Shown piece after piece: positions 1 to 41,698 of a stretch of 41,698 bases of DNA. Under the pieces are notes generated by a model. It did not search any database. It had not been told where the DNA came from and was given only the letters and a program-made list of their open reading frames with translations. A program made the translations under genes and the position numbers. Position 1 is the first letter of the stretch, and each line of letters starts with the position of its first letter. This DNA comes from a virus, in IMG/VR virus record IMGVR_UViG_3300045988_115336, positions 1-41,698 of that record. The stretch is one strand, 5' to 3'.

Positions 1-55
1 AAACCATCCTAAATATATAAGAAAAACTGTAAAATGTGATTATTGTGGAAAAAAA
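1..55. repeat. Terminal overlap: bases 1-55 are identical to 41644-41698, indicating a circular or circularly permuted contig
   Basis: Direct comparison of both ends shows an exact 55/55 match. An ORF reads through the junction without a stop. Confidence 0.95.
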
Positions 56-520
56 ATAAAGATTAAAAATTACAAATTAGAAGATAATAAAAAACACTAT
101 TGTAGTAGAGAGTGCCAATATAGAGATTTTACAGGTAGGAAAAATACAAAAGAATATAAACATATGATGAGGGAAATAACACCAAGAGGAGAAAATAGTC
201 CACATTGGAAATTTGAAAAAACTGATGAAGAACGATTAATAGGAAGAGCTACACCTGAAGACCACGAATGGAGGGTAAGAGTTCTCGAAAGAGATAATTA
301 TACTTGTCAAGTTTGTGGTAAAAGAGGTGGGGATTTATGTGTTCATCATATTAATGGTTATCATTGGGATAAAGAACATAGACATGACATAAATAACGGA
401 ATTACTCTTTGTAAACATCACCATAAAGAATTTCATAAAATTTATGGAAATAAAAACAATACTAAAGAACAATTTGATGAATATATTAATAAAATACATG
501 TTAATACCGAGGTAAACTAA
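2..520 (+). CDS. Intron-encoded HNH endonuclease, C-terminal part (same ORF as 41417..41698; about 248 aa on the circle)
   Basis: The frame is open from base 2 and continuous with the ORF running off the window end. It has an HNH motif (CQVCG...HHINGY...NGITLC..HH) and resembles the 277-aa ORF at 5569-6402. Confidence 0.85.
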   Translation, partial: NHPKYIRKTVKCDYCGKKIKIKNYKLEDNKKHYCSRECQYRDFTGRKNTKEYKHMMREITPRGENSPHWKFEKTDEERLIGRATPEDHEWRVRVLERDNYTCQVCGKRGGDLCVHHINGYHWDKEHRHDINNGITLCKHHHKEFHKIYGNKNNTKEQFDEYINKIHVNTEVN

Positions 521-712
521 GAAGTTAAAAAGTCTTAGTCACCGTAACGCATAGGAATTGAACCTATGCTTTTTTATTGAAAAAAGTATAGAATAAAATA
601 TTCCCACGAGTGGTTAACACCTTAGCAAGTAAAGTTGAAGGTGAAAATATATGCTGAACTTATAGGAAACTATAAGAACTATAGGATAAAAAGCCTATAG
701 GATAACAAATTG

Positions 713-1421
713 AGAACTAACAGACGAAGCAGTATTATCAGGATATGGTAATCCTGTAGGTGAAACAAATAACCAAATAGCAAAATCAATAGCTTCTAAA
801 GTAGATAACGATGCAATAGATGTTTTATTTAATGCACAATTAATTTATGATGGCTCAGGCGGAATTATAAATTATGACAGAATAGTTGACGCAATAGATG
901 TATTTGATGAAGAATTAAATACAGAAAAAGCGATGTTTGTAAATCCCAAACAAGTTACACAATTAAGAAAAGATGCTAATTTTATATCTGCAGACAAATA
1001 TACTGGTCAAGTAGTTATGAATGGAGAAATAGGTAAAATAGCTAATTGCAGAATTGTAGCAACTAAAAAAGCTAAATTAGTGGATGAATGGTACTCTTTC
1101 TGCGAAAGTGGAACAAATAGTGCAGTAGAAGTAACATCTAGCAACTTAGCAACAATACAAGCTACATTGCCAAATGCAAAAGAAGGCGATTATGTATTAA
1201 AATCAACTACTGCAGTATACTTTAATCCAATTATAAAACTTAATAATGATGCTGAAACAGAAGAAGATACTGCTGCTTTAACTGTATACTTAAAAAGAGA
1301 TACAAATGTAGAAACAGATAGAGTATCTTTAGCAAGAAAAACTGATATATCTGCTGACAAACACTATACTGCAGTCTTATCAAATGCAGCTAAAGTTGTT
1401 TTAGCTAAATTTAAAAAATAA
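713..1421 (+). CDS. Major capsid protein, exon 3 (HK97-fold family)
   Basis: The frame is open from 714. It encodes ELTDEAVLSGYGNPVGE..., a conserved capsid motif, with no start codon or RBS of its own before Met at 933. Confidence 0.85.
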
Positions 1422-1436
1422 TAGGACGTGATTTAA

Positions 1437-1685
1437 ATGTCTGATATAGAAAAACTAAAACTAATTCTAAGGGAGAGTGATTCTCCCTTTTTTACTGATG
1501 AACAACTTCAATTTTATTTAGAGCAAAATGACAATGATATAAATAAAACTGCTTATGAATGCCTTCTAGCTAAAGCAGAAGATGATAGTATTGCCTTACC
1601 AGGTGGATTATCATTACCTAATAACAAAGATTACTGGGTAAGACTTGCTAAAAAATACAGACCGAATGGAAGTAAAATTTTATGA
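1437..1685 (+). CDS. Head-tail connector-like protein or hypothetical protein
   Basis: ORF directly after the capsid gene. The call rests on synteny only. Confidence 0.5.
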   Translation: MSDIEKLKLILRESDSPFFTDEQLQFYLEQNDNDINKTAYECLLAKAEDDSIALPGGLSLPNNKDYWVRLAKKYRPNGSKIL

Positions 1686-2053
1686 TAAATAAAGAAAAAA
1701 TTAAAGCAAAAGTTAAAAAAGCAATAAAGAAGCTTCCTTCTCGAGCAGTAGTTAAGCGAGCTTATACCAACGACTTTGGAGAAAAGTCAGACTTATTAGA
1801 ATTAGTATGCGAGCTAGAAGGCTTATATCATGAAGGTAGTAATCTTTCTATATCCTTGCAAGATAAAGGAGAGGTAAAGACTGATAAAGGTTTATATTTT
1901 CTAATTGCTTATGATGAGACTGCTAAGCTCATACAAAAAGATGATTACATCTATATAGAAGGCTATAAATATCAAATTAAGGACCTTGGAAACATAAATA
2001 AAATGGATATTTATATGGATATGAAGCTTCAAGAGGTGAGTTACGTTGAGTAG
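1682..2053 (+). CDS. Head closure or head-tail adaptor-like hypothetical protein
   Basis: ATGA overlap with the upstream ORF; position in the morphogenesis module. Confidence 0.5.
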   Translation: MINKEKIKAKVKKAIKKLPSRAVVKRAYTNDFGEKSDLLELVCELEGLYHEGSNLSISLQDKGEVKTDKGLYFLIAYDETAKLIQKDDYIYIEGYKYQIKDLGNINKMDIYMDMKLQEVSYVE

Positions 2054-2477
2054 TGGATTTAATTTTGATGCTAGTCAAATTTTGGGAAACTTGTCAGCTC
2101 AACCAGCTAGATTTAAAGCTAGTATGAGTGCTTATGCTTCTAGTAGTGCAATAAAACTACAAAACTATGCTAGGCAAAATAAACCATGGAAAGACCATAC
2201 ACACGATGCTAGAAATAGACTTAGCGCTGACTGGGAATGGCGAGGCAATAAAATAGTAATAGCACTATCACATGGAGTTGACTATGGGATATATCTAGAA
2301 AAAGGAACATCACCGCATACTATAACAGGAAGCCCTTGGTTGTATTGGCAAGGCGCTAGTCATCCTGTTAAAAAAGTTAATCATCCAGGTACAAATCCTT
2401 ATCCAATTATAATGCCAGCTATCGAACATGTAGGTCCACAAATAATGGCTGGATTAACTGTATTATTAAGTAGGTGA
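2046..2477 (+). CDS. HK97 gp10-like head-tail joining protein
   Basis: TTG start overlapping the upstream stop. The sequence pattern (KDHTHDARNRL...GVDYGIYLE) and position fit the family. Confidence 0.55.
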   Translation: MSSGFNFDASQILGNLSAQPARFKASMSAYASSSAIKLQNYARQNKPWKDHTHDARNRLSADWEWRGNKIVIALSHGVDYGIYLEKGTSPHTITGSPWLYWQGASHPVKKVNHPGTNPYPIIMPAIEHVGPQIMAGLTVLLSR

Positions 2478-2481
2478 TCTA

Positions 2482-2829
2482 ATGTTTAAGGATTTATATA
2501 AATTTCTTAAAACTGCTGGACTAACTGTATTTTCTTTAGGGCAACAAGATAAAATTTGTACTACTCCATTTGTACTTTTTTATAACGCTGGGATAGAGGA
2601 TACAACAAGTAAAAATCTAAAAAAAGAGAGCATAGAGTTGTGGGTATTTTATCCGTTTAACGAGTATTCCAAGGTTGGTGGATATATAAAACGAGTTGAA
2701 GATACAGTAACTAAATTTGGCAAATTAAGAAAAGATTATGATAAATATGCTATTGAAATAGATAACGATATGAAAGCTTATTATACTAAGCTTACGTATT
2801 ACAGATATGTACAAAGGAGGTTGAGATAA
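2482..2829 (+). CDS. Tail completion or neck protein (hypothetical)
   Basis: Synteny, just upstream of the major tail gene. Confidence 0.45.
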   Translation: MFKDLYKFLKTAGLTVFSLGQQDKICTTPFVLFYNAGIEDTTSKNLKKESIELWVFYPFNEYSKVGGYIKRVEDTVTKFGKLRKDYDKYAIEIDNDMKAYYTKLTYYRYVQRRLR

Positions 2830-3389
2830 TGGCAACAGAGGTAACACTTAACCAACATGCACTTTCAGATGTGGCATGTGTAGAAATAGTTACAGAAGAT
2901 GAAAAAAGTTATACATTTGAAACTGCTTCAGAAGTAGGGATAGAAGAAGTGCTAGACGAAGGCGATGAACAAACTTTAAAAATAAAAAATGTATTATATG
3001 CGAATAGAAAAGCAGAAGATACATTATTAGGACACGATTTAACATTTACAGATAATCTTATGTGTCCTGAATTATTGGAGTTATTCCAAGGTGGTACGTT
3101 GACACCAGGGGAAGGTGGTAAATTCACATATACACCTCCAGCAATAGGGACAAAAGCAACTAAAAAGAAATTTACATGCAATATATATACTTGCGAAGTA
3201 TCAACAGATGGAGATACTGGAAAATATATAAAAGTATCTTATCCAAGTTGTGAGGGAACTAGCGTACCTTTTACGTTTAAAGATGGGGAATATTACACTA
3301 ATGAATATGTAATAAAATCTAGACCAGCTAAAAATGCAGCGCCTTATACAGCTTCTTTAGTAGATGCATTACCGACAACTGCTGTATAA
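2829..3389 (+). CDS. Major tail protein
   Basis: 186 aa. It lies immediately before the chaperone pair and tape measure, and is followed by an attenuator-type hairpin. Confidence 0.65.
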   Translation: MATEVTLNQHALSDVACVEIVTEDEKSYTFETASEVGIEEVLDEGDEQTLKIKNVLYANRKAEDTLLGHDLTFTDNLMCPELLELFQGGTLTPGEGGKFTYTPPAIGTKATKKKFTCNIYTCEVSTDGDTGKYIKVSYPSCEGTSVPFTFKDGEYYTNEYVIKSRPAKNAAPYTASLVDALPTTAV

Positions 3390-3411
3390 TAAAATATAAC
3401 AAATAGATTTT

Positions 3412-3445
3412 AGCCTTCCTAATTAACTTTAGGAGGGCTTTTATT
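3412..3445 (+). terminator. Rho-independent terminator or attenuator after the major tail gene
   Basis: AGCCTTCCTAA / TTAGGAGGGCT forms an 11-bp stem with one G.U pair and a 6-nt loop, followed by TTTATT. Confidence 0.6.
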
Positions 3446-3462
3446 ATGAAAGGAAATAGATA

Positions 3463-3912
3463 ATGGAAAATTTACAAGTAACAAGTTTAGAACAGTTAAA
3501 AAAAGTAAAACAAACCGATATAGTTAATTTAGGAAAATTTGAAGATGGAACAGAGTTTATAGCAGAGCTAAAAAGACCAGATGTGATGGCTTTAGCAGTT
3601 GAAGGTAAAATACCTAATACCCTTTTAACAGAAGTAACTAAGCTATTTAACGGCAAAAATAAACTAGCTAGTAAGGTATTGGAAAATAACGGAGATGCTT
3701 TTATACAGTTAGGGCAATTAATGGATATTTTAGCTAAAGCATCTTTAGTAAATCCGACAATGAAACAGTTGGATGAAATAAATGTGACTCTGACTCAAGA
3801 AATGAAAACAGCAATAATGATGTATTTCCAAAGTGGGGTTGAAGGATTAAAAAACTTTCGTAAAGAGCAAGAACGTATTGCGAATAATCAACCAAGCGCT
3901 GAAATTCAATAG
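3463..3912 (+). CDS. Tail assembly chaperone (gpG analogue)
   Basis: 149-aa acidic protein directly upstream of the tape measure. The next ORF overlaps it in another frame. Confidence 0.65.
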   Translation: MENLQVTSLEQLKKVKQTDIVNLGKFEDGTEFIAELKRPDVMALAVEGKIPNTLLTEVTKLFNGKNKLASKVLENNGDAFIQLGQLMDILAKASLVNPTMKQLDEINVTLTQEMKTAIMMYFQSGVEGLKNFRKEQERIANNQPSAEIQ

Positions 3913-4102
3913 ATTGCCTAGTGAAATTTTAAGGATAAAAGACGAATATGTGGCTTTTTGTTTTGATGAAGCTTGCTATTACATAATCAATCAAATGGAA
4001 AATAAGAAGAAACCTCATTTCTTTGATGAAGTAAGTGAAGATAAAAATAAGTATTATCTAAATGATTTCCTTCGAAAAGAAGCATTGAAAGGAGGATTTT
4101 AG
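3878..4102 (+). CDS. Tail chaperone extension (gpT analogue), probably made as a frameshift fusion
   Basis: This frame is open from 3851. There is only a TTG with no convincing RBS, and it overlaps the chaperone ORF by 62 nt. Confidence 0.45.
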   Translation: MRIINQALKFNRLPSEILRIKDEYVAFCFDEACYYIINQMENKKKPHFFDEVSEDKNKYYLNDFLRKEALKGGF

Positions 4103-4152
4103 AAGATAAATGTCGAATAATACAATTAAGTTAAAAGGAGGTCATTATCTAT

Positions 4153-4938
4153 ATGAGAGAAATTTGGAAAAATATAAAAGGGTACGAAGGAAAATATATG
4201 GTAAGTACAGATGGAAGAGTGAAAAGTATCAATTATAAAAATTCAAGTAGCCCTAACATATTAAAACAAGGCTTAGATAAATATGGATATAAACAATTAA
4301 CTCTTTATTCAAATGGGAGTAAGAAAACATTTAAAGTACATAGACTAGTAGCAGAAACATTTTTAGAAAATCCTAAAAATTTACCTCAAATTAATCATAA
4401 AGATGAAAACAAACAAAATAACAAAGTAGAAAATTTAGAATTTTGCTCAGCTTCATACAATATAAATTATGGAACTAGAAATAAAAAAACATCGGAAAAG
4501 TTAAAAGTAATAAGAAAAACTACAAGCCCTGTAAGTGGAGAAAATAATCCTATGTATGGCAAGCATCATACAGATGAGACCAAAAGGAAAATAAGTGAAG
4601 CACGCAAGGGTAAATACGCAGGGAAAAACAACCCTATGTATGGCAAACATAGGAGTGATGAAGTTAAAGAAAAACTCAGTAAAGCAAATAAAGGCAAGAA
4701 ATTACCAAAAGAAACTAAAAAGAAAATAAGCGAAGCTAATAAAGGGGAAAAACATCCTCAAGCTAAAAAAGTTATCTGCATAACAACAGGAGAAATATTT
4801 AATTATATAAAAGAGGCAACACAAAAATATAATATAGATAATTCAAGTATTACAAAATGCTGTAAAGGGAAAAGAAAATCAAGTGGCAAACATCCTATAA
4901 CAGGTGAAAAACTTGAATGGGGTTATTATGTTGAATAA
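4153..4938 (+). CDS. Free-standing HNH homing endonuclease (NUMOD4-like N-terminus, HNH_3-like core, repeated NUMOD-type helices)
   Basis: WKNIKGYEGKYMVSTDGRV, HRLVAETF...INHKDENKQNN, and repeats of GxNNPMYGKH..E.K.K.S. It has an AGGAGG RBS. Confidence 0.8.
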   Translation: MREIWKNIKGYEGKYMVSTDGRVKSINYKNSSSPNILKQGLDKYGYKQLTLYSNGSKKTFKVHRLVAETFLENPKNLPQINHKDENKQNNKVENLEFCSASYNINYGTRNKKTSEKLKVIRKTTSPVSGENNPMYGKHHTDETKRKISEARKGKYAGKNNPMYGKHRSDEVKEKLSKANKGKKLPKETKKKISEANKGEKHPQAKKVICITTGEIFNYIKEATQKYNIDNSSITKCCKGKRKSSGKHPITGEKLEWGYYVE

Positions 4939-4960
4939 AATAAAATATTAAATTATATTA

Positions 4961-4985
4961 ACAGGGGTTAAGCCCTGTTTTTTTA
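4961..4985 (+). terminator. Rho-independent terminator after the HNH gene
   Basis: ACAGGG gttaag CCCTGT followed by TTTTTTT. Confidence 0.7.
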
Positions 4986-5018
4986 TTGAATAAATTTGAT
5001 GGGGAGGTGAAAAATCCG

Positions 5019-5063
5019 ATGAGTGTAAATTTAGGTACAGCTATAGGATATCTCTCGAGCTAG
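5019..5063 (+). CDS. Tape measure N-terminal segment in a different frame (14 codons, then TAG)
   Basis: Strong RBS (GGGGAGGTGA, with GGAGG 7 nt upstream of the ATG). It encodes MSVNLGTAIGYL, a typical tape measure N-terminus. The continuation ELDSSRW is in the frame reached by a net +2/-1 shift at CUCUC 5052-5056. Confidence 0.5.
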   Translation: MSVNLGTAIGYLSS

Positions 5064-5107
5064 ATTCTAGCAGATGGACTAATAGTTATACTACAGCTAG
5101 ACAACAA

Positions 5108-5368
5108 ATGCAAACATTAGCTGACAGTTCGCAAAGTATGGGGAGTAGGTTTCAAGCTGCAGGTTCTATGCTTACAAGTGCGGGTTCTACATTAACCACA
5201 CATGTAACATTACCATTAGTCGGCATTGGGGCTGCTTCGGTAAAAACTGCTGCTGATTTTGAAAGTAGTATGAGTAATGTACAGGCTTTATCTGGTGCAA
5301 CTGGGGGAGAATTACAACAATTATCTGATTTAGCAAAAGAAATGGGAGCAAGTACACAATTTAGTGCT
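5108..5368 (+). CDS. Tape measure protein, exon 1 (frame open from 5000; first ATG at 5108 has no RBS)
   Basis: It encodes ...KEMGASTQFSA, the conserved tape measure core. The frame then reads into the intron and stops at 5387-5389. Confidence 0.8.
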
Positions 5369-5568
5369 AAAAAAAGATTGGCACACTAAATAGAAATATT
5401 TAGAAAAAATAAGCGAGCAATATCGGTAAAACACGTAACTGATTATTAAAATATGATATAATATAGTTAGGGATAGTTAAGGAAGTCGCGAGCCTTAATG
5501 AAAAGAAAGTTATCCGAGCTTTCTTCCCTGTTGATTAATCGGATGGATACTATCGGAGGTGTTTAAAA

Positions 5569-6402
5569 ATGAATTATAAAATTTGTTCAAAATGTAAAGA
5601 ATTAAAACCTTTAGATGCTTTTGAAAAAAGTAATTCTTGTAAAGATGGGCATAGAGGAACTTGTAAACAATGTAGACAAGAACAAAAAAATAAAAAACAT
5701 CAATTACAGTGTGAAGTATGTGGGGAAAAATTTACAAGTTCTAGAAAAGAAGCTAAATATTGCAGTGAAAAATGCCAACATTTAGCACGTAGAAATAGAG
5801 TAAAAGTGAAATGTTCATATTGTGGGAAAGAGCTAGAAGTTATAAAGTCAAAAGCAGACAGTCAAGAATATTTTTATTGTAATCAACAATGTAGAACAGA
5901 ACATTTAAAAACAATAATGAAAGGTACAAATAATCCTAACTTCAACAAAGTAAAATATAATTGTGATGGATGCAATAAAGAAATTTATATAAATCCTTAT
6001 AAAATAAAATCTCAAAAACATATATTTTGTTCTGAGGAATGTTACATAAAAAATATAGGTAAATTTTACAAAGGTGAAAATAATTCTAATTGGAATAAAA
6101 ATCTAACCTCAGAAGAAAGAGAATTAAAAAGAAGATATCCTAAATATTATGAATGGAGAAACAAAGTGTATGAGAGAGATAATTACACTTGCCAAATTTG
6201 TGGAAGTAGTAAGAGTGGAACATTAATAGCGCATCATTTAAATGGATATAACTGGGATATAGAGCATAGGACAGATATTGATAATGGAATAACTTTATGT
6301 ACTAGATGCCATAATGAATTTCATAATAAATTTGGATGCGGGAATAATACAAAAGAACAATTTGAACAATTTTTAAATATTAAATTACAAGTGTCTTTAT
6401 AA
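5569..6402 (+). CDS. Intron-encoded HNH endonuclease with N-terminal Cys4 zinc-ribbon-like modules
   Basis: GGAGGTG RBS. Repeated CxxC...CxxxC modules and a C-terminal HNH motif (CQICG...HHLNGY...NGITLC..CH). Confidence 0.85.
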   Translation: MNYKICSKCKELKPLDAFEKSNSCKDGHRGTCKQCRQEQKNKKHQLQCEVCGEKFTSSRKEAKYCSEKCQHLARRNRVKVKCSYCGKELEVIKSKADSQEYFYCNQQCRTEHLKTIMKGTNNPNFNKVKYNCDGCNKEIYINPYKIKSQKHIFCSEECYIKNIGKFYKGENNSNWNKNLTSEERELKRRYPKYYEWRNKVYERDNYTCQICGSSKSGTLIAHHLNGYNWDIEHRTDIDNGITLCTRCHNEFHNKFGCGNNTKEQFEQFLNIKLQVSL

Positions 6403-6414
6403 GACACTTTTTTT
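6391..6414 (+). terminator. Terminator-like hairpin at the end of the intron ORF
   Basis: GTGTCTT tat AAGACAC followed by TTTTTTT, overlapping the HNH stop codon. Confidence 0.45.
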
Positions 6415-6645
6415 ATACAAATAATCAGATGTCAATACCGAGATAACTTTATAGATTGCGAAAGGCTATAAAGTATCGTAGAGCGTAGATAGTGAATAAA
6501 TATAATCTATCCAAGAGTGTTCGCCACCTTACCATTAAGTTGAAGGTGAAAATGTACGCCAAACTGGGTTTGAAATGACAAACCGATGAAAATGAGGGAA
6601 ACCTCCAGAGGTTAGGATAAAAAGCCTAACGATAATAACGATTTG

Positions 6646-6783
6646 AGTCAATGTGCAGATGCTCTTAGCTACATGGCATTAGCTGGTTGGGACACTCAAC
6701 AATCAATGGATGCACTTCCAGGGGTATTAAACCTTGCTGCTGCATCGGGTATGGATTTAGCAAATGCCAGCGACGCGGTGACT
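6646..6783 (+). CDS. Tape measure protein, exon 2 (46 codons)
   Basis: An open 138-nt frame encodes SQCADALSYMALAGWDTQQSMDALPGVLNLAAASGMDLANASDAVT, a conserved tape measure core. It has no start codon. Confidence 0.8.
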
Positions 6784-7208
6784 AAAAAATATTGGTCGGT
6801 TACTTGGAAACAAGTAGCATAAAGCATCGAGGAAAAACGGGGAAGGTTAAACTTTGTTTAAAGATATCGTTACCCTTGAAAATACTAATTATATATCAAA
6901 TTAAGGAATTTTTAAACAAGCAAATTAATCCCGTGACAAACTAAGAAATTAAAAAATCTTAGTCGTTGTAGAGCGTAGGTATTGAACCTATGCTTTTTAT
7001 TTTTAAAAAGTGTAGAATATAATATACCCACGAGTCCTCGACACGATTATATATAGGATAATCTGAAAACCTAACGTAAAACGAGGGTGAAAAGGTACGC
7101 CAAACTAGGTATGAAATGACATACCGATGAGATAAGGAATTGCACAACTTATCAAATGAGGGAAACTTCTAGAGGTTGAGATAAAAAGCTCAACGTTAAT
7201 AACAAATG
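6784..7208 (+). mobile_element. Group-I-type intron TMP-i2 (425 nt, ORF-less)
   Basis: The 5' splice site follows U6783, and UGACU pairs with GGUCG at 6794-6798. The intron ends ...TAATAACAAATG. Joining the exons gives SDAVT|DILSAFG. Its core is homologous to TMP-i1 and MCP-i2. Confidence 0.8.
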
Positions 7209-9953
7209 GATATTTTAAGTGCATTTGGGATGCAAGCAAGTGATGCAGGAATGGCAGCAGACCAATTTGCATATGCACAAGCTAACGCAAATACAAGTGC
7301 AGACCAATTAACAGAAGCGATGGCTAACTGTGGTGTTAATGCTAATGGATTTGGACAAGATTTAACACAAACGAATGCAGTATTGATGGCCTTATCTAAT
7401 GAAATGCTAAAAGGTGCACCAGCTGGTACAGCATTATCTGCGGTATTTAGAGATATGGGTAATGCAATGGAAAATGGTTCTATTCAAATAGGCAAGACAA
7501 AAGTAAAGATTACTGATGCCAATGGGGACTTCCTAGATATGACAGATATCTTAAAAGGAGTAGAAGAAGCTACAGACGGCATGAGTGAATCAGAGCGACA
7601 AGCTGCTCTATCTTCTACTTTTACAGCAGATAGTATAAAAGCTATGGGAATACTTTTAAATGAAGGTAGTGACAAAGTTGCTGGATATGCAGATCAACTA
7701 GAAAATTGTGGTGGTAGTGCTGAAAAAATGGCCGAAGTTATGAATGATAACCTTAATGGTCAAATAACTGCATTAAAATCAGCTTTAGAAGGTGCTGCAA
7801 TATCTATTGGTGAAGCATTATTGCCAATGATAAAAGGATTAGTAAGTGTGTTACAAGGCGCTTTAACTTGGTTTAATGGACTTAATAGCGGTGTTAAAAC
7901 AACTATAGTCACAGTAGGATTAGTAGTTGCAGCTATAGGGCCATTATTATTAATTCTAGGCTCTTTAGCAAGTGCAATAGGAAACTTAATAGAGCTGAGG
8001 GCATTGATGACTGAGTCTAGTGTGTTAAGTAGTGCGATAAGTAGAGTATCAGGACTATTTACTAGTTTAAGAAATGTGATTATAGGTTCGGTAATACCGG
8101 CTATACAATCATTATGGGCATTTATGCTAGCTAATCCAATAACTATAGTAATAGCAGCAATAGCAGCATTAGTTGCTGGATTTATATATCTTTGGAATAA
8201 CTGTGAAAGTTTTAGAAATTTCTGGCTTAATCTATGGGATAACATAGTTGAAGCAGTTGGCAAAGCTCCAGCAAGTGTTCAAGCTGCTTTTAATTCTATT
8301 ATGAATGTATTTAATGGAATAAAAACTTTTTTGGGTGACTTAGTTGGTGGAATAAAAACATTACTAGGAGACCTATTTAGTGGCAACTTCGGTAAATTAT
8401 CAGAAGATGTTCAAAAGCTAGGGAAACAATTACAAAAAGATTTTCAAAATATAATAGTGAGTTTAAGAAAATCTTTATTAGATGGAACAAATGCATTGAA
8501 AGATGCTTTTAGTAACGGATTAGCAACATTATTAGATCCTATAATAAATTGGGGTTATAGTGTTAATGGTTATTTTGGCGATGCTTTTACAGATTTATAC
8601 GGAACAATAGAAGATACTTTCAGTTTGATAGTAGACTATATAAGAGATTCAATATCTATTATGATTAGTATTTTTACTGGAGACTGGCAAGGGGCTTTGC
8701 AAGGTGTACAAAACTTATTTTCTAATTTAGGCAATAATATAATGACTATACTATCAGATTTATGGAACTTTATATCAGAAATATTTATGGGTATAGGACA
8801 AGTAATAGTCGATAAATTGTCTGAAGTAGGAACTAATATATCAAATTGGTTTACAAATACTTATAATTCATTTATACAATGGTGTACAAACCTTATAACA
8901 GGTATAGGACAATGGTTTAATGAATTGCCTTCTAGAATAGGATATGCATTAGGTTTAGCACTTGGAACAATAACAAGTTGGGTAGTAAATACATATAATT
9001 ATTTTGCAACTAATATACCACTTTGGATAGAGTCTATAGGACAATGGTTCTCTCAGTTGCCTTCTAGAATAGGTCAATGGCTAACAAATACATACAACAA
9101 TGTAGTTAGCTGGGGAAGTAACATGTTATCAAAAGCACAAGAGACTGGCTCAAATTTTGTTAATAATATGATTAGTTTTATACAAAATTTACCGAGCAAT
9201 GTAGCAAGCTGGTTATCTCAAACTTATAACAAAGCAGTTAACTGGGCTTCACAAATGGCATCAAAAGCACGTGAAGCTGGCTCAAACTTTATAAAAAATG
9301 TTATAAGTGCAATACAAAACTTGCCAAGTAAAGTATGGAGTTTATTGTCTCAAGCAATAAGTAAAGCTGCTAATTTTGTATCTCAATTCGGTCAAAAAGC
9401 TACTCAAGCTGGTAGAACATTTACAACAAATATAGTAAATGGAGTTAAGAGCATTCCAAGTAAAATGGTAAGTATAGGTAGCAATATAGTAAAAGGTATA
9501 TGGTCAGGTATTAGTGGGGCTGGAAGTTGGTTAAGAAGTCAAATTAGTAACTTTGCAAGTAATATTGTAAAAGGATTTAAATCCTCATTCAAAATTAACT
9601 CACCTTCTAAGATAATGAGAGATATAATCGGTAAAGGTATTGTAGAAGGTATAGGAGTTGGTATAGACAACGAAGAAGATAGTTTATTGACAAAAGCAGA
9701 TAAACTAGCAGGTAATGTAGTTGACACAATGAATGGTAATATTGCTACTACAAATTTATTTGACACTGCTAAGAGCTTAACAGATAGTATGGCGATAGCT
9801 AATCAAACTAATAGTAGTCAAGAAAATAACACAAATAGATTTGCTAGCTTATTACATATAGAAAACTTAACTATAAACGATGATAAGGACATAGAAACTC
9901 TAGCGAATGATTTAGCGTTTTATTTAAAAAGAAAAAACGTATTAACAGTATAA
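7209..9953 (+). CDS. Tape measure protein, exon 3
   Basis: 914 codons: DILSAFGMQASDA..., a hydrophobic central segment and long repeat-rich helices. The annotated ATG at 7206 lies inside the intron 3' end and has no RBS. Confidence 0.85.
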   Translation, partial: DILSAFGMQASDAGMAADQFAYAQANANTSADQLTEAMANCGVNANGFGQDLTQTNAVLMALSNEMLKGAPAGTALSAVFRDMGNAMENGSIQIGKTKVKITDANGDFLDMTDILKGVEEATDGMSESERQAALSSTFTADSIKAMGILLNEGSDKVAGYADQLENCGGSAEKMAEVMNDNLNGQITALKSALEGAAISIGEALLPMIKGLVSVLQGALTWFNGLNSGVKTTIVTVGLVVAAIGPLLLILGSLASAIGNLIELRALMTESSVLSSAISRVSGLFTSLRNVIIGSVIPAIQSLWAFMLANPITIVIAAIAALVAGFIYLWNNCESFRNFWLNLWDNIVEAVGKAPASVQAAFNSIMNVFNGIKTFLGDLVGGIKTLLGDLFSGNFGKLSEDVQKLGKQLQKDFQNIIVSLRKSLLDGTNALKDAFSNGLATLLDPIINWGYSVNGYFGDAFTDLYGTIEDTFSLIVDYIRDSISIMISIFTGDWQGALQGVQNLFSNLGNNIMTILSDLWNFISEIFMGIGQVIVDKLSEVGTNISNWFTNTYNSFIQWCTNLITGIGQWFNELPSRIGYALGLALGTITSWVVNTYNYFATNIPLWIESIGQWFSQLPSRIGQWLTNTYNNVVSWGSNMLSKAQETGSNFVNNMISFIQNLPSNVASWLSQTYNKAVNWASQMASKAREAGSNFIKNVISAIQNLPSKVWSLLSQAISKAANFVSQFGQKATQAGRTFTTNIVNGVKSIPSKMVSIGSNIVKGIWSGISGAGSWLRSQISNFASNIVKGFKSSFKINSPSKIMRDIIGKGIVEGIGVGIDNEEDSLLTKADKLAGNVVDTMNGNIATTNLFDTAKSLTDSMAIANQTNSSQENNTNRFASLLHIENLTINDDKDIETLANDLAFYLKRKNVLTV

Positions 9954-40734: not shown

Positions 40735-40894
40735 ATGTCAACAACAAAAATTGCAGATTTAATAAATCCAGAAGTAATGGCAGATATGATTTCAGCCAAA
40801 ATAGAAAAAAAATTAGTGGTTACACCATTTGCTAAAATAGATACTACATTAGTAGGGCAACCAGGAAATACTATAACAGTTCCACAATATGCGT
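40735..40894 (+). CDS. Major capsid protein, exon 1
   Basis: AGGAAGGTGA RBS. It encodes MSTTKIADLINPEVMADMI...GQPGNTITVPQYA, a conserved capsid N-terminus, and the frame hits TAA right after this point. Confidence 0.85.
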
Positions 40895-41172
40895 AAAAAT
40901 ATGCGCCTTTACATAGTGATATGTATTGCAAACCCTTTTAATTGCTGGAAACTCCTAAAGAGTTCATCTCACTTTAGGACAATCAGCAGCGAAGATTCAT
41001 TAAATATATATTTAATGAATAACGTTCAACGACTAGCCGAAAGGCGTACACCCAAGTGGGTGGAAATGGAGGGCAACTCAAGGAGTTGATGATATAGTCT
41101 AATCTATATAGTAATATATAGCAGTTCATAAGAGAACGATACAAGATTAACGACCTTGTATGAATGTAAATG
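40895..41172 (+). mobile_element. Group I intron MCP-i1 (278 nt, ORF-less)
   Basis: GCGU/GCGC forms P1 with a U.G pair. ACGACUA ... AUAGUC forms a P7-like pair. There are several hairpins, GNRA loops and a terminal G. Joining the exons gives PQYA|YIGDAVDVAEG. Confidence 0.85.
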
Positions 41173-41275
41173 ATATAGGAGATGCAGTAGATGTAGCAGA
41201 AGGTGTTGCAGCAGAAACAGTAAAATTAACTACTACTTCAACAACTGCTACAGTAAAAAAAGCTATGAAAGCGGT
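41173..41275 (+). CDS. Major capsid protein, exon 2
   Basis: It encodes (Y)IGDAVDVAEGVAAETVKLTTTSTTATVKKAMKAV. It has no start codon, and the frame is restored only by splicing on both sides. Confidence 0.8.
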
Positions 41276-41698
41276 AAATTAATTCTGCCGTCTTCTTTAG
41301 AAATAAAGAAGTAATAAATTAACCAAAATCGGTAAAGGCTAAATATTTTATTATTTATGAAATTGAATTAACGGACTAAGCACTCAATATGTTATAATAT
41401 TATTGAGGTGATTAAGTTGAAAAAAATATGTCAATGTTGTAATAAAGAGTATAATGCAAAACGAAGTTCTTCAAAATATTGTTCTAAAGAATGTCAAATA
41501 AAAGCTAGAACGAAAAAAGTTAAAGTACAATGTAGCTATTGTAAAAAAGAAATAGAACGTAAAGCTTGTCATATGAAATACGAAAAGCACTTCTGTAATA
41601 ATGAATGTAGAGGTAAATGGATGAGTGAAAATTTAGTAGCAGAAAACCATCCTAAATATATAAGAAAAACTGTAAAATGTGATTATTGTGGAAAAAAA
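41276..41698 (+). mobile_element. 5' portion of group-I-type intron MCP-i2 (continues at base 56 on the circle)
   Basis: The 5' splice site follows U41275, and GCGGU pairs with GCCGU at 41287-91. It contains the start of the HNH ORF. Confidence 0.8.
41417..41698 (+). CDS. Intron-encoded HNH endonuclease, N-terminal part (runs off the window; continues at 56..520)
   Basis: TTG start 6 nt after GAGGTG. MKKICQCCNKEY... has Cys4 modules homologous to 5569-6402. There is no stop codon before the window end. Confidence 0.8.
   Translation, partial: MKKICQCCNKEYNAKRSSSKYCSKECQIKARTKKVKVQCSYCKKEIERKACHMKYEKHFCNNECRGKWMSENLVAENHPKYIRKTVKCDYCGKK

What the first reader, a model, noticed from the sequence alone, without database searches (positions are those of the whole stretch)
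6403..7208. Three of the four introns are one family, with compensatory base changes that support a conserved RNA fold
The regions 521-712, 6403-6645 and 6930-7208 align.

The penultimate hairpin keeps an invariant loop (ATAAAAAG), but its arms covary:
- CTATAGG/CCTATAG (679-700)
- GTTAGG/CCTAAC (6611-30)
- GTTGAG/CTCAAC (7175-94)

Another helix shows a T:A to A:T swap: GGTTTG-aaatga-CAAACC (6567-84) versus GGTATG-aaatga-CATACC (7108-25). Hairpins upstream also covary: GCATAGG...CCTATGC in MCP-i2 and GCGTAGG...CCTATGC in TMP-i2, with a CTAAGA...TCTTAG stem in both.

Single-stranded blocks such as GGTGAAAAnGTACGCCAAACT and the 3' tail GATAA(T)AAC..TTG are conserved. I could not assign P3-P9 confidently by eye, and no obvious GACUA/UAGUC P7 is visible. 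The subgroup, or even the exact ribozyme class, is therefore uncertain and may be divergent.
Basis: seen in the sequence. Interest (0 to 1): 0.8.

Follow-up and report, generated by a model that had tools for sequence, protein, structure and literature searches.

The report
Rfam-invisible group I phage introns
Three of the four introns that split this phage's capsid and tape-measure genes are ordinary self-splicing group I introns of the Twort-like IA2 type, which the standard Rfam model misses because two base pairs of the catalytic helix P7 are changed.

Summary

The ribozyme class is not uncertain. These are group I introns:
- MCP-i2: 41276, across the contig wrap, to 712.
- TMP-i1: 5369-6645.
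- TMP-i2: 6784-7208.

Each has a P1 helix with a U.G wobble at the 5' splice site and a terminal G. Each also has P2 to P9 with the P3/P7 pseudoknot.

It covaries perfectly (60 A-U, 29 G-C, no mismatch). It keeps the bulge and the G-C pair of the guanosine site.

On 104 distinct relatives, 96.9% of cells are paired and 28 of 29 pairs show compensatory changes. A model of the family matches the crystallised Twort group I introns (E about 1e-7). Rfam RF00028 finds none of them.

Two introns carry related HNH homing endonuclease genes in the P5 loop. Joined exons align without a break to uninterrupted homologues.

Related IA1/IA2 introns in prophage tape-measure and terminase genes were described in 2008, so this is a new member of a known kind. 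Interest is low to moderate.

The parts
41276..41416 (+). MCP-i2, 5' ribozyme segment. The 5' splice site follows T41275. P1 is exon GCGGT 41271-41275 with guide GCCGT 41287-41291. P2 is 41292-41311 with a GAAA loop. The P3 5' strand is TTAACC 41319-41324. J3/4 is AAAA. The P4 5' strand is TCGGT 41329-41333.
   Evidence: Pairings checked. The exon junction gives ...KAMKAV|ELTDEAVLSG. The joined MCP aligns in one piece to uninterrupted capsid genes.
41417..41698 (+). First part of the HNH homing endonuclease ORF of MCP-i2 (TTG start, 248 aa), sitting in the P5 loop. It continues at window 56-520, because the last 55 nt of the window repeat the first 55.
   Evidence: Translation. Pfam HNH_2 at E 1.9e-5. 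It is 43% identical to the TMP-i1 ORF product.
1..520 (+). Rest of the MCP-i2 HNH ORF. Bases 1-55 duplicate 41644-41698. The stop codon at 518-520 lies inside P6, so the ORF reads through the P4 3' strand and into P6.
   Evidence: 55-nt overlap, open frame.
506..712 (+). MCP-i2, 3' ribozyme segment.
- P4 3' strand: ACCGA 506-510.
- P6: 511-543.
- J6/7: 544-548.
- P7: GCATA 549-553 with TATGC 650-654, plus A547-T655 and bulged C548.
- P7.1: 554-558 with 600-604.
- P7.2: 564-591.
- P3 3' strand: GGTTAA 612-617.
- P8: 618-623 with 638-643.
- P9: 660-675, GAAA loop.
- Last hairpin: 679-700.
- Terminal G: 712.
   Evidence: Family model R1 scores 101.3 bits at 544-714. Pairings checked.
5369..5568 (+). 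TMP-i1, 5' ribozyme segment. The 5' splice site follows T5368. P1 is exon GTGCT 5364-5368 with guide GGCAC 5380-5384. P2 is 5386-5403 with a GAAA loop. The P3 5' strand is GCGAGC 5413-5418. The P4 5' strand is TCGGT 5423-5427.
   Evidence: The junction reads ...STQFSA|SQCADALSY in frame.
5569..6402 (+). HNH homing endonuclease ORF of TMP-i1 (277 aa) in the P5 loop, followed by a terminator-like hairpin at 6389-6409.
   Evidence: Pfam HNH at E 5.1e-6. Terminator scan.
6403..6645 (+). TMP-i1, 3' segment.
- P4 3' strand: ACCGA 6437-6441.
- P6: 6442-6477.
- P7: GCGTA 6483-6487 with TACGC 6555-6559, plus G6481-C6560 and bulged A6482.
- P7.1: 6488-6492 with 6507-6511, 14-nt loop TGAATAAATATAAT.
- P3 3' strand: GTTCGC 6519-6524.
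- P8: 6525-6530 with 6543-6548.
- P9 three-way region, including 6567-6584.
- Last hairpin: 6611-6630.
- Terminal G: 6645.
   Evidence: R1 scores 100.4 bits at 6478-6644. Pairings checked.
6784..7208 (+). TMP-i2, which has no ORF.
- P1: exon GACT 6780-6783 with guide GGTC 6794-6797.
- P2: 6800-6817, GAAA loop.
- P3: TCGAGG 6827-6832 with CCTCGA 7036-7041.
- P4: ACGGG 6837-6841 with CCCGT 6930-6934.
- P5: long extension at 6842-6929.
- P6: 6935-6967.
- P7: GCGTA 6973-6977 with TACGC 7096-7100, plus G6971-C7101.
- P7.1: 6978-6982 with 7024-7028.
- P7.2: 6988-7015.
- P8: 7042-7089.
- P9 region, including 7108-7125.
- Last hairpin: 7175-7194.
- Terminal G: 7208.
   Evidence: R1 scores 51.4 bits at 6968-7208. 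Pairings checked. The junction reads ...ASDAVT|DILSAFG. A 253-aa stretch spanning both TMP junctions matches exactly 253 codons of the FP_Lagaffe tape-measure gene in one piece.

Best explanation
The three elements are mobile group I self-splicing introns of one family, of the IA2-like kind exemplified by the Staphylococcus phage Twort introns. They are inserted in the major capsid gene (MCP-i2) and twice in the tape-measure gene (TMP-i1 and TMP-i2).

**Inferred mechanism (from established group I chemistry)**
- The transcript folds into the group I core.
- An internal guide sequence pairs with the last 4-5 exon bases, with a U.G wobble at the cleavage site (P1).
- Free guanosine docks on the invariant G-C pair of P7 and attacks the 5' splice site.
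- The terminal G then takes its place and the exons are joined. This restores intact capsid and tape-measure reading frames.

**What differs from textbook members**
- P7 is GCRUA/UAYGC rather than GACUA/UAGUC.
- The pair next to the G-binding G-C is C-G instead of A-U.
- The pair after that is A-U or G-C instead of C-G.

**Mobility**
Two copies carry related HNH homing endonuclease genes in the loop of P5, which would spread the intron at the DNA level. TMP-i2 has no endonuclease gene (it has lost one or never had one). The three copies have different guide sequences suited to their own insertion sites.

**Shown here:** homology, the fold (by covariation), splice-site geometry, exon continuity, and HNH domains.

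**Inferred, not shown:** actual guanosine-dependent self-splicing and homing.
For: **Splice sites and exons**
- Every copy has U at -1, G as its last base, and a 4-5 bp P1 with U.G.
- Joined exons are in frame.
- They align as single unbroken pieces to uninterrupted capsid and tape-measure genes.

**Fold**
- On 18 full-length copies without an ORF, the complete P2-P9 scheme including the P3/P7 pseudoknot is 95.6% paired. 42 of 57 pairs have double changes, including 6 of 6 P3 pairs. No shuffle of 500 reaches this.
- RNAalifold, given no structure, recovers P3, P4, P5, P6, P7.1 and P9.
- The minimum-energy fold of the compact phiCD211 copy gives the same helices, z = -4.3.
- On 104 distinct 3' domains, 96.9% of cells pair and 28 of 29 pairs covary.

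**P7**
- The R/Y pair is 60 A-U and 29 G-C with no mismatch in 89 unique copies.
- The pair across the bulge switches A-U (58) and G-C (35).

**Link to proven ribozymes**
- Model R1 matches Twort introns I2 and I3 at E 1.3e-7 and 4.8e-8 (about 1e-6).
- P7, P9, the last hairpin and the 3' tail all align in register.
- Rfam recognises those Twort introns as RF00028 at 97-101 bits.

**Endonucleases**
- Both ORFs have HNH domains and are 43% identical.

**Literature**
- IA1/IA2 group I introns in tape-measure, terminase and tail-tube genes of Bacillus cereus-group prophages are described in PMC2504315.
- That paper reports sequence relatives of those introns in phages JCL1032 and c-st, two phages in which this family also has matches.
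Against: - Rfam RF00028 gives no match to any of the three, even at E<=10 on a 471-nt slice. It finds none of 24 R1 matches (family copies, plus a few weaker matches that may be other intron types) in 17 other loci.
- The canonical R and S sequences are absent.
- Two of the four base-triple layers described around the guanosine site in Tetrahymena (PMC9943679) would rest on different base pairs here. The effect of this on catalysis is untested.
- In MCP-i2 and TMP-i2 the 5' strand of P7 can instead pair with the 5' arm of P7.2. This forms a terminator-like hairpin followed by a run of U and could compete with the active fold.
- No splicing was observed directly.
- The tape-measure gene also has a 2-nt frame break near its start (about 5052-5056). 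The contig may therefore be defective or carry an assembly error.
Confidence: 0.88

Rival explanations
1. They descend from group I introns but are no longer autonomous ribozymes. On this view they are decayed copies, or need a protein cofactor such as the HNH protein or a host factor acting as a maturase. The altered P7 would reflect loss or change of the guanosine site.
For: P7 departs from the near-universal GACUA/UAGUC. Rfam gives no hit. A competing terminator-like hairpin exists in two copies. The frame break at the tape-measure start hints at a possibly defective genome (from the sequence).
Against: The variant P7 is shared by more than 100 copies in many phages. It is kept by perfect covariation with an invariant G-C and a bulge. 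That is the signature of selection for function, not decay. The whole core covaries. The host genes (capsid, tape measure, terminase) are essential, so non-splicing copies would be lethal.
Confidence: 0.07
2. A new ribozyme or intron class that only resembles group I superficially. This is the open possibility the first reader left.
For: No Rfam family matches. No canonical P7 sequence is present.
Against: The topology matches group I helix by helix, including the pseudoknot, the bulged P7, the U.G in P1 and the terminal G. The family model aligns significantly and in register with the Twort group I introns. There are no group II features: the introns begin AAA rather than GUGYG, and there is no domain V match.
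Confidence: 0.02
3. They are not introns at all. Homing-endonuclease cassettes split the genes, and the pieces are translated separately. The ATG at 7206, at the end of TMP-i2, might suggest this.
For: ORF 7206-9953 starts with an ATG that overlaps the last bases of TMP-i2.
Against: No ribosome-binding site precedes 7206, exon 2 (6646) or exon 3 of the capsid gene (713) (seen in the sequence). A 46-codon tape-measure fragment and capsid fragments would be useless on their own. A conserved, covarying RNA fold would have no reason to exist. TMP-i2 and many relatives carry no endonuclease gene.
Confidence: 0.02

Closest known systems
Staphylococcus phage Twort orf142 group I introns I2 and I3 (subgroup IA2; I2 is the crystallised Twort ribozyme, recalled as PDB 1Y0Q)
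   Same: - The order of helices is the same.
- L2 is GNRA and L9 is GAAA.
- There is an insertion (P7.1/P7.2) between P7 and the 3' strand of P3.
- J6/7 plus a bulged C sits before the G-C of P7.
- P9, the last hairpin and the 3' tail (GUAACAUAAUUG against GAUAACAAAUUG) are near-identical.
- Model R1 aligns them at E about 1e-7.
   Different: - P7 is GACUA/UAGUC in Twort and GCRUA/UAYGC here.
- The P4 and J3/4 sequences differ (AAUUCAGGGAAC against AAAAUCGGUGAAGG).
- Here P7.1 closes a conserved 14-nt loop, UGAAUAAAUAUAAU.
- Twort's introns score 64-101 bits with RF00028. These score nothing.
Group I introns (IA1/IA2) in tape-measure, terminase and tail-tube genes of Bacillus cereus-group prophages (Tourasse and Kolsto 2008, PMC2504315)
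   Same: - The host genes and the biology are the same.
- Related introns sit at different sites of one tape-measure gene, each with its own guide sequence.
- Some have endonuclease genes and some do not.
- That paper lists JCL1032 (tape-measure gene) and c-st as relatives. This family also hits both.
   Different: I could not fetch those Bacillus introns, so it is not shown that they carry the same P7 variant. The host here is a different low-GC phage from a metagenome.
Rfam RF00028 (Intron_gpI), including the fourth intron of this window at 40885-41121
   Same: Both are group I introns. They occur in the same capsid gene of the same phage (112.8 bits).
   Different: RF00028 treats the two P7 strands as conserved single-stranded sequence (alignment). 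A likely consequence, not tested directly, is that a family with a compensated P7 change, together with its different P4 sequence, falls below detection. R1 in turn does not hit 40885-41121.
Cluster J mycobacteriophage introns in capsid and tail genes (PMC3706429, title and abstract only)
   Same: Introns that interrupt phage capsid and tail genes; the paper's text also mentions group I introns, tape measure and HNH (term counts only).
   Different: The hosts are unrelated, and no sequence relationship was tested here.

Membership tests
Group I self-splicing intron | P1 helix: the last exon bases pair with an internal guide sequence, with a U.G wobble at the 5' splice site. | tested here: met
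   GCGGU/GCCGU (MCP-i2), GUGCU/GGCAC (TMP-i1) and GACU/GGUC (TMP-i2) are all fully paired, with the exon U opposite G. The junctions are fixed by reading frame and by uninterrupted homologues.
Group I self-splicing intron | The last intron base is a guanosine (omega G). | tested here: met
   G712, G6645 and G7208 directly precede the in-frame 3' exons.
Group I self-splicing intron | Conserved core P3-P9 with the P4-P6 and P3-P8 domains, and the P3/P7 pseudoknot. | tested here: met
   95.6% of cells are paired and 42 of 57 pairs have double changes. All 6 P3 pairs covary, and P7 is 100% paired while crossing P3. On 104 distinct 3' domains pairing is 96.9%. RNAalifold finds P3, P4, P5, P6, P7.1 and P9 unaided.
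Group I self-splicing intron | Guanosine-binding site: a conserved G-C pair in P7 next to a bulged nucleotide. | tested here: met
   G-C occurs in 96 of 100 cells. A bulged C or A lies on the 5' strand. The pair across the bulge covaries, A-U 58 and G-C 35. Whether it binds guanosine was not tested.
Group I self-splicing intron | Canonical R/S core sequences (GACUA ... UAGUC), i.e. an A-U then a C-G pair after the G-binding pair. | tested here: not met
   P7 is GCRUA/UAYGC: C-G in 87 cells, then A-U in 65 or G-C in 27. This is a sequence consensus and not part of the mechanism's definition.
Group I self-splicing intron | Guanosine-dependent self-splicing in vitro. | not testable with these tools
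   Needs transcription and splicing assays.
Group I self-splicing intron | Detectable homology to an experimentally proven group I ribozyme. | tested here: met
   R1 hits Twort I3 at 37.7 bits (E 4.8e-8) and I2 at 35.8 bits (E 1.3e-7), with P7, P9, the last hairpin and the tail in register.
Rfam RF00028 Intron_gpI | Score at or above the 50-bit gathering threshold. | tested here: not met
   There is no RF00028 match at gathering, at E<=10 over 1-8000, or at E<=10 over 6760-7230. None of 24 R1 matches (family copies, plus a few weaker matches that may be other intron types) in 17 loci is found.
Group I subgroup IA2 (definition from memory of Michel and Westhof 1990 and the Twort structure paper) | Extra hairpins P7.1/P7.2 between P7 and the 3' strand of P3. 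No P5abc. P2 is present. The 3' domain has P9 plus further hairpins. | tested here: met
   P7.1 is 100% paired, with 4 of 5 pairs covarying. P7.2 is present in MCP-i2 and TMP-i2. P5 is a simple hairpin or carries the ORF. P9 and the last hairpin covary. The subgroup label itself was not checked against subgroup-specific models.
Group II intron | 5' GUGYG, 3' AY, a six-domain structure and the catalytic domain V. | tested here: not met
   The introns start AAA and end in G. They are 260-425 nt without the ORF. There are no group II Rfam matches.
HNH homing endonuclease (intron-encoded) | An HNH nuclease domain encoded inside the intron. | tested here: met
   Pfam HNH_2 at 1.9e-5 for the MCP-i2 ORF, and Pfam HNH at 5.1e-6 for the TMP-i1 ORF. 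Cleavage activity was not tested.

The most novel reading that the evidence does not exclude
The compensated P7 (C-G and R-Y in place of A-U and C-G next to the G-binding pair) may define a distinct, large phage lineage of group I ribozymes. The base-triple sandwich around guanosine would then be built differently, with possible consequences for cofactor affinity or specificity.

In the sub-lineage represented by MCP-i2 and TMP-i2, the inserted P7.2 arm can sequester the 5' strand of P7 in a terminator-like hairpin. That could act as a co-transcriptional switch between termination or misfolding and splicing.
Probability: 0.1. Interest if true: 0.5.

Novelty: new member of a known kind. Interest (0 to 1): 0.27.

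Why it matters
**Annotation**
- A large family of phage and prophage group I introns escapes the standard Rfam model.
- It has at least 104 distinct copies in the IMG/VR loci fetched, matches in 105 isolated-phage records, and copies in prophages of Bacillota and cyanobacteria.
- Capsid, tape-measure, terminase and gyrase genes are therefore routinely annotated as fragments, 'hypothetical proteins' or 'terminators'.
- A dedicated covariance model would repair many gene calls.

**RNA biology**
- The family is a natural experiment. Two of the four layers around the guanosine-binding site are swapped yet strictly maintained.

**This phage**
- Its two key structural genes need four splicing events before virions can be made.
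- Related introns with different guide sequences have spread within one genome.

Tried and rejected
- **Rfam.** Scans at gathering and at E<=10 gave only chance-level hits to unrelated families over the three elements (whole window, 1-8000, 6760-7230). The only related signal was a terminator-like match (L20 leader).
- **New ribozyme class.** Considered and rejected once P1, P3, P7 and the pseudoknot were located and shown to covary, and once the Twort introns matched the family model.
Rejected as the conserved pairing. In relatives the insert varies (for example CCTAGGC, CCTTGC, ACTGAT). It always pairs with its own 3' arm, while GCRTA always matches TAYGC downstream.
- **Separate translation of gene pieces.** Rejected, because there are no ribosome-binding sites and the fragments would be senseless.
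- **The AR9 genome paper.** I tried to read it for its intron description, but it is not held.
- **Pattern scan of bacterial genomes.** Most of the 120 returned stretches were chance matches. The family model found 31 matches among the 100 stretches it searched.
- **The canonical intron at 40885-41121.** R1 does not detect it, so it is not a member of this family.

Full report
**Context.** The window is a low-GC phage contig whose last 55 nt repeat its first 55, so it is circular or terminally redundant. The major capsid gene (MCP) starts at 40736 and continues at 713 across the wrap. The tape-measure gene (TMP) runs from about 5019 to 9953. Rfam at its curated threshold finds one RNA in the whole window. 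This is a canonical group I intron at 40885-41121 in the capsid gene, at 112.8 bits. That is the fourth intron and is not part of this finding.

**Checking the observation.** The three regions align with 68% mean column identity. No Rfam family, including RF00028, matches them at E<=10, whether 8 kb or only 471 nt is searched.

**Exon boundaries.** Reading frames and homology fix the junctions.
- The MCP-i2 intron runs from 41276 across the wrap to 712.
- TMP-i1 runs 5369-6645.
- TMP-i2 runs 6784-7208.
- The joined sequences read ...KAMKAV|ELTDEAVLSG...STQFSA|SQCADALSY and ...ASDAVT|DILSAFG.
- The joined capsid protein aligns in one piece over its whole length to uninterrupted capsid genes; 262 records cover at least 80% of it.
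- A 253-aa stretch spanning both tape-measure junctions matches exactly 253 codons of the Faecalibacterium phage FP_Lagaffe gene in one piece.
- In all three introns the base before the intron is U and the last intron base is G.

**Anatomy.** A compact 280-nt copy without an ORF, in the tape-measure gene of Clostridium phage phiCD211 (L003, about 2418-2697, unannotated), served as a guide. With it I could assign a complete group I scheme to all three copies and verify each helix by script.
- P1 pairs the exon end with a guide sequence and has a U.G wobble: GCGGU/GCCGU, GUGCU/GGCAC and GACU/GGUC.
- P2 is a 7-8 bp hairpin with a GAAA loop.
- P3 is TTAACC/GGTTAA, GCGAGC/GTTCGC and TCGAGG/CCTCGA.
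- J3/4 is AAAA or AAUA.
- P4 is UCGGU/ACCGA, or ACGGG/CCCGU in TMP-i2.
- P5 carries the HNH ORF in its loop in MCP-i2 and TMP-i1, and is a long hairpin in TMP-i2.
- J6/7 follows, then P7, which is GCAUA/UAUGC in MCP-i2 and GCGUA/UACGC in both TMP introns. A further pair lies across a bulged C or A.
- P7.1 closes the conserved loop UGAAUAAAUAUAAU. In MCP-i2 and TMP-i2 a 12-bp hairpin, P7.2, is inserted in that loop.
- The 3' strand of P3, then P8, J8/7 (AAAAUR) and the 3' strand of P7 follow.
- P9 follows.
- The last hairpin has the invariant loop AUAAAAAG, and the tail is GAUAAC...UUG.
- P3 and P7 cross, which is the group I pseudoknot.

**Relatives and statistics.**
About 108 of 123 occurrences carry further family motifs.
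- In 89 unique copies the variable P7 pair is A-U 60 times and G-C 29 times, with no mismatch.
- A 138-position covariance model of the 3' domain (R1) finds 118 copies at E<=1e-4 in 100 sources.
- On the 104 distinct copies, 96.9% of cells are paired against 70.3% in shuffles. 28 of 29 pairs carry double changes. Sliding the partners gives 33-50% pairing. That alignment was fitted to the model, so it leans towards the structure. The MAFFT alignment of 25 seeds gives 94.9% pairing and 20 of 29 pairs.
- On a MAFFT alignment of 18 full-length copies without an ORF, the whole scheme including the pseudoknot is 95.6% paired, with 42 of 57 pairs covarying.
- RNAalifold, given no structure, predicts P3, P4, P5, P6, P7.1 and P9.
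- The minimum-energy fold of the phiCD211 copy gives the same helices at z = -4.3.

**Link to proven group I ribozymes.**
- R1 matches Twort introns I3 and I2 at 37.7 and 35.8 bits, E 4.8e-8 and 1.3e-7 in that 2.4-kb record, and about 1e-6 in a 59-kb search. E-values from this shortened calibration are rough.
- The alignment puts GCAACGACUA on GUAACGCRUA, and AUAUAGUCUGAAC on AUAUAYGCYGAAC. It continues in register through P9, the last hairpin and the 3' tail to the terminal G.
- I2 is, from memory, the crystallised Twort ribozyme. My recalled sequence of it matched the Twort genome at 98.6%.
- RF00028 recognises the Twort introns at 64-101 bits.
- So the family is homologous to bona fide IA2 introns. 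Its P7 keeps the geometry: a pair across a bulged nucleotide, then the G-C pair. The next two pairs are changed from A-U, C-G to C-G, R-Y.
- In Tetrahymena those two pairs carry two of the four base-triple layers that sandwich the bound guanosine (PMC9943679).
- RF00028 models the P7 strands as conserved unpaired sequence (visible). That plausibly explains why it misses the family. It found none of 24 R1 matches (family copies, plus a few weaker matches that may be other intron types) in 17 loci.

- The hairpin GCATAGG...CCTATGC looks like an intrinsic terminator. It is flagged at 549-569 and 6970-6996, and is annotated as a terminator in phage 6ec.
- Its 5' arm, however, is the 5' strand of P7 plus the start of P7.1. 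Its 3' arm is the 5' arm of P7.2.
- The difference between MCP-i2 and TMP-i2 there is one-sided (A-U to G.U). The true partner, TAYGC downstream, changes with it.
- In relatives the P7.2 arm varies freely and pairs with its own 3' arm.
- It may still be a competing or transient structure. That is the only unusual lead left.

**Mobility.**
- The ORFs at 41417 (across the wrap) to 520 and at 5569-6402 encode HNH nucleases with cysteine-rich N-terminal repeats. They are 43% identical.
- The MCP-i2 ORF reads through the 3' strand of P4 into P6.
- TMP-i2 and many relatives lack an ORF.
- The three copies have different guide sequences. This is as described for related introns at different sites of Bacillus cereus-group prophage tape-measure genes (PMC2504315).

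**Distribution.**
- The MCP-i2 3' domain has BLAST matches in 105 isolated-phage records. Hosts include Staphylococcus, Bacillus, Clostridium/Clostridioides, Streptococcus and Lactobacillus (JCL1032). Most matches lie under no annotation or under 'hypothetical protein'.
- There are two copies in the AR9 gyrase gene, whose coding sequence is annotated as joined from three pieces.
- The family model found 31 matches among 100 of the bacterial-genome stretches returned by the pattern scan. These come from Bacillota, Dolichospermum and another cyanobacterium, Gastranaerophilales and others.

**Verdict.** The interpretation as one family with a conserved fold is right. The class is group I, IA2-like. 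Group I introns with HNH genes in phage capsid, tape-measure and terminase genes are well documented (PMC2504315; PMC3706429, title and abstract only). This is therefore a new member of a known kind. It has a modest twist, a compensated P7 that hides the family from Rfam, and one untested lead, the competing terminator-like hairpin. Self-splicing itself is inferred and not shown.

Noticed in passing
window 40885-41121 (the intron probably extends to about 41160): This is the fourth intron (MCP-i1), a canonical group I intron at 112.8 bits with RF00028 and with GACUA/UAGUC. The family model R1 does not detect it, so the capsid gene holds two different kinds of group I intron.
   Followed up: partly
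window 5019-5110: The tape-measure gene starts at ATG 5019, preceded by GGGGAGGTG. After MSVNLGTAIGYL the frame breaks. The rest of the protein (LELDSSRW...) is in another frame from about 5054. This is as if CTCTC at 5052-5056 holds two extra bases. It could be an assembly error, a real frameshift in a defective phage, or recoding.
   Followed up: no
window 1-55 and 41644-41698: The first 55 nt are repeated exactly at the end, so the contig is circular or terminally redundant (41643 unique bases). MCP-i2 and its HNH ORF run across this junction.
   Followed up: yes
window 4153-4938: A free-standing, I-HmuI-like HNH endonuclease gene (NUMOD4, HNH_3, four NUMOD3 motifs) lies between the tail genes and the tape-measure gene. 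It is followed by a strong terminator-like hairpin at 4960-4979. This is the third homing-type nuclease in 7 kb.
   Followed up: partly
window 549-569 and 6970-6996: Terminator-like hairpins followed by U runs sit inside MCP-i2 and TMP-i2. They are formed by the 5' strand of P7 and the 5' arm of P7.2. They are mutually exclusive with P7, P7.1 and P7.2. The equivalent site is annotated as a rho-independent terminator in Staphylococcus phage 6ec.
   Followed up: partly
L003 (Clostridium phage phiCD211) 2418-2697 and 2731-2996: The phiCD211 tape-measure gene holds an unannotated compact copy of this family. It is directly followed, after a roughly 33-nt exon, by a second intron that the record annotates as Intron_gpI. 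My Rfam 15 scan did not report that second intron at E<=1. The related contig L015 has an RF00028 hit of 103.7 bits at the corresponding place.
   Followed up: partly
L001 (Bacillus phage AR9) 2389-2574 and 2843-3028: Two copies of the family, of the three-way-P9 type seen in the TMP introns, lie in the AR9 DNA gyrase/topoisomerase II gene. Its coding sequence is annotated as joined from three pieces.
   Followed up: partly
L131 (Dolichospermum MAG), L159 (Lachnospiraceae MAG), L183, L160, L191: The family also occurs in bacterial assemblies, presumably in prophages, though the flanking genes were not examined. There are up to three copies per 8-kb stretch. Hosts include cyanobacteria and one MAG labelled Gammaproteobacteria, so it is not confined to Bacillota phages.
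   Followed up: no
P6 loops of relatives (for example L042, L061, L017, L065) and window 6455-6466: The P6 extension very often ends in the motif AUUGCGAAAGGC, a GAAA tetraloop on a G-C/C-G stem. It is present in TMP-i1 (attgcgaaaggc) but replaced by an A-rich loop in MCP-i2 and TMP-i2. It may be a tertiary contact module.
   Followed up: no
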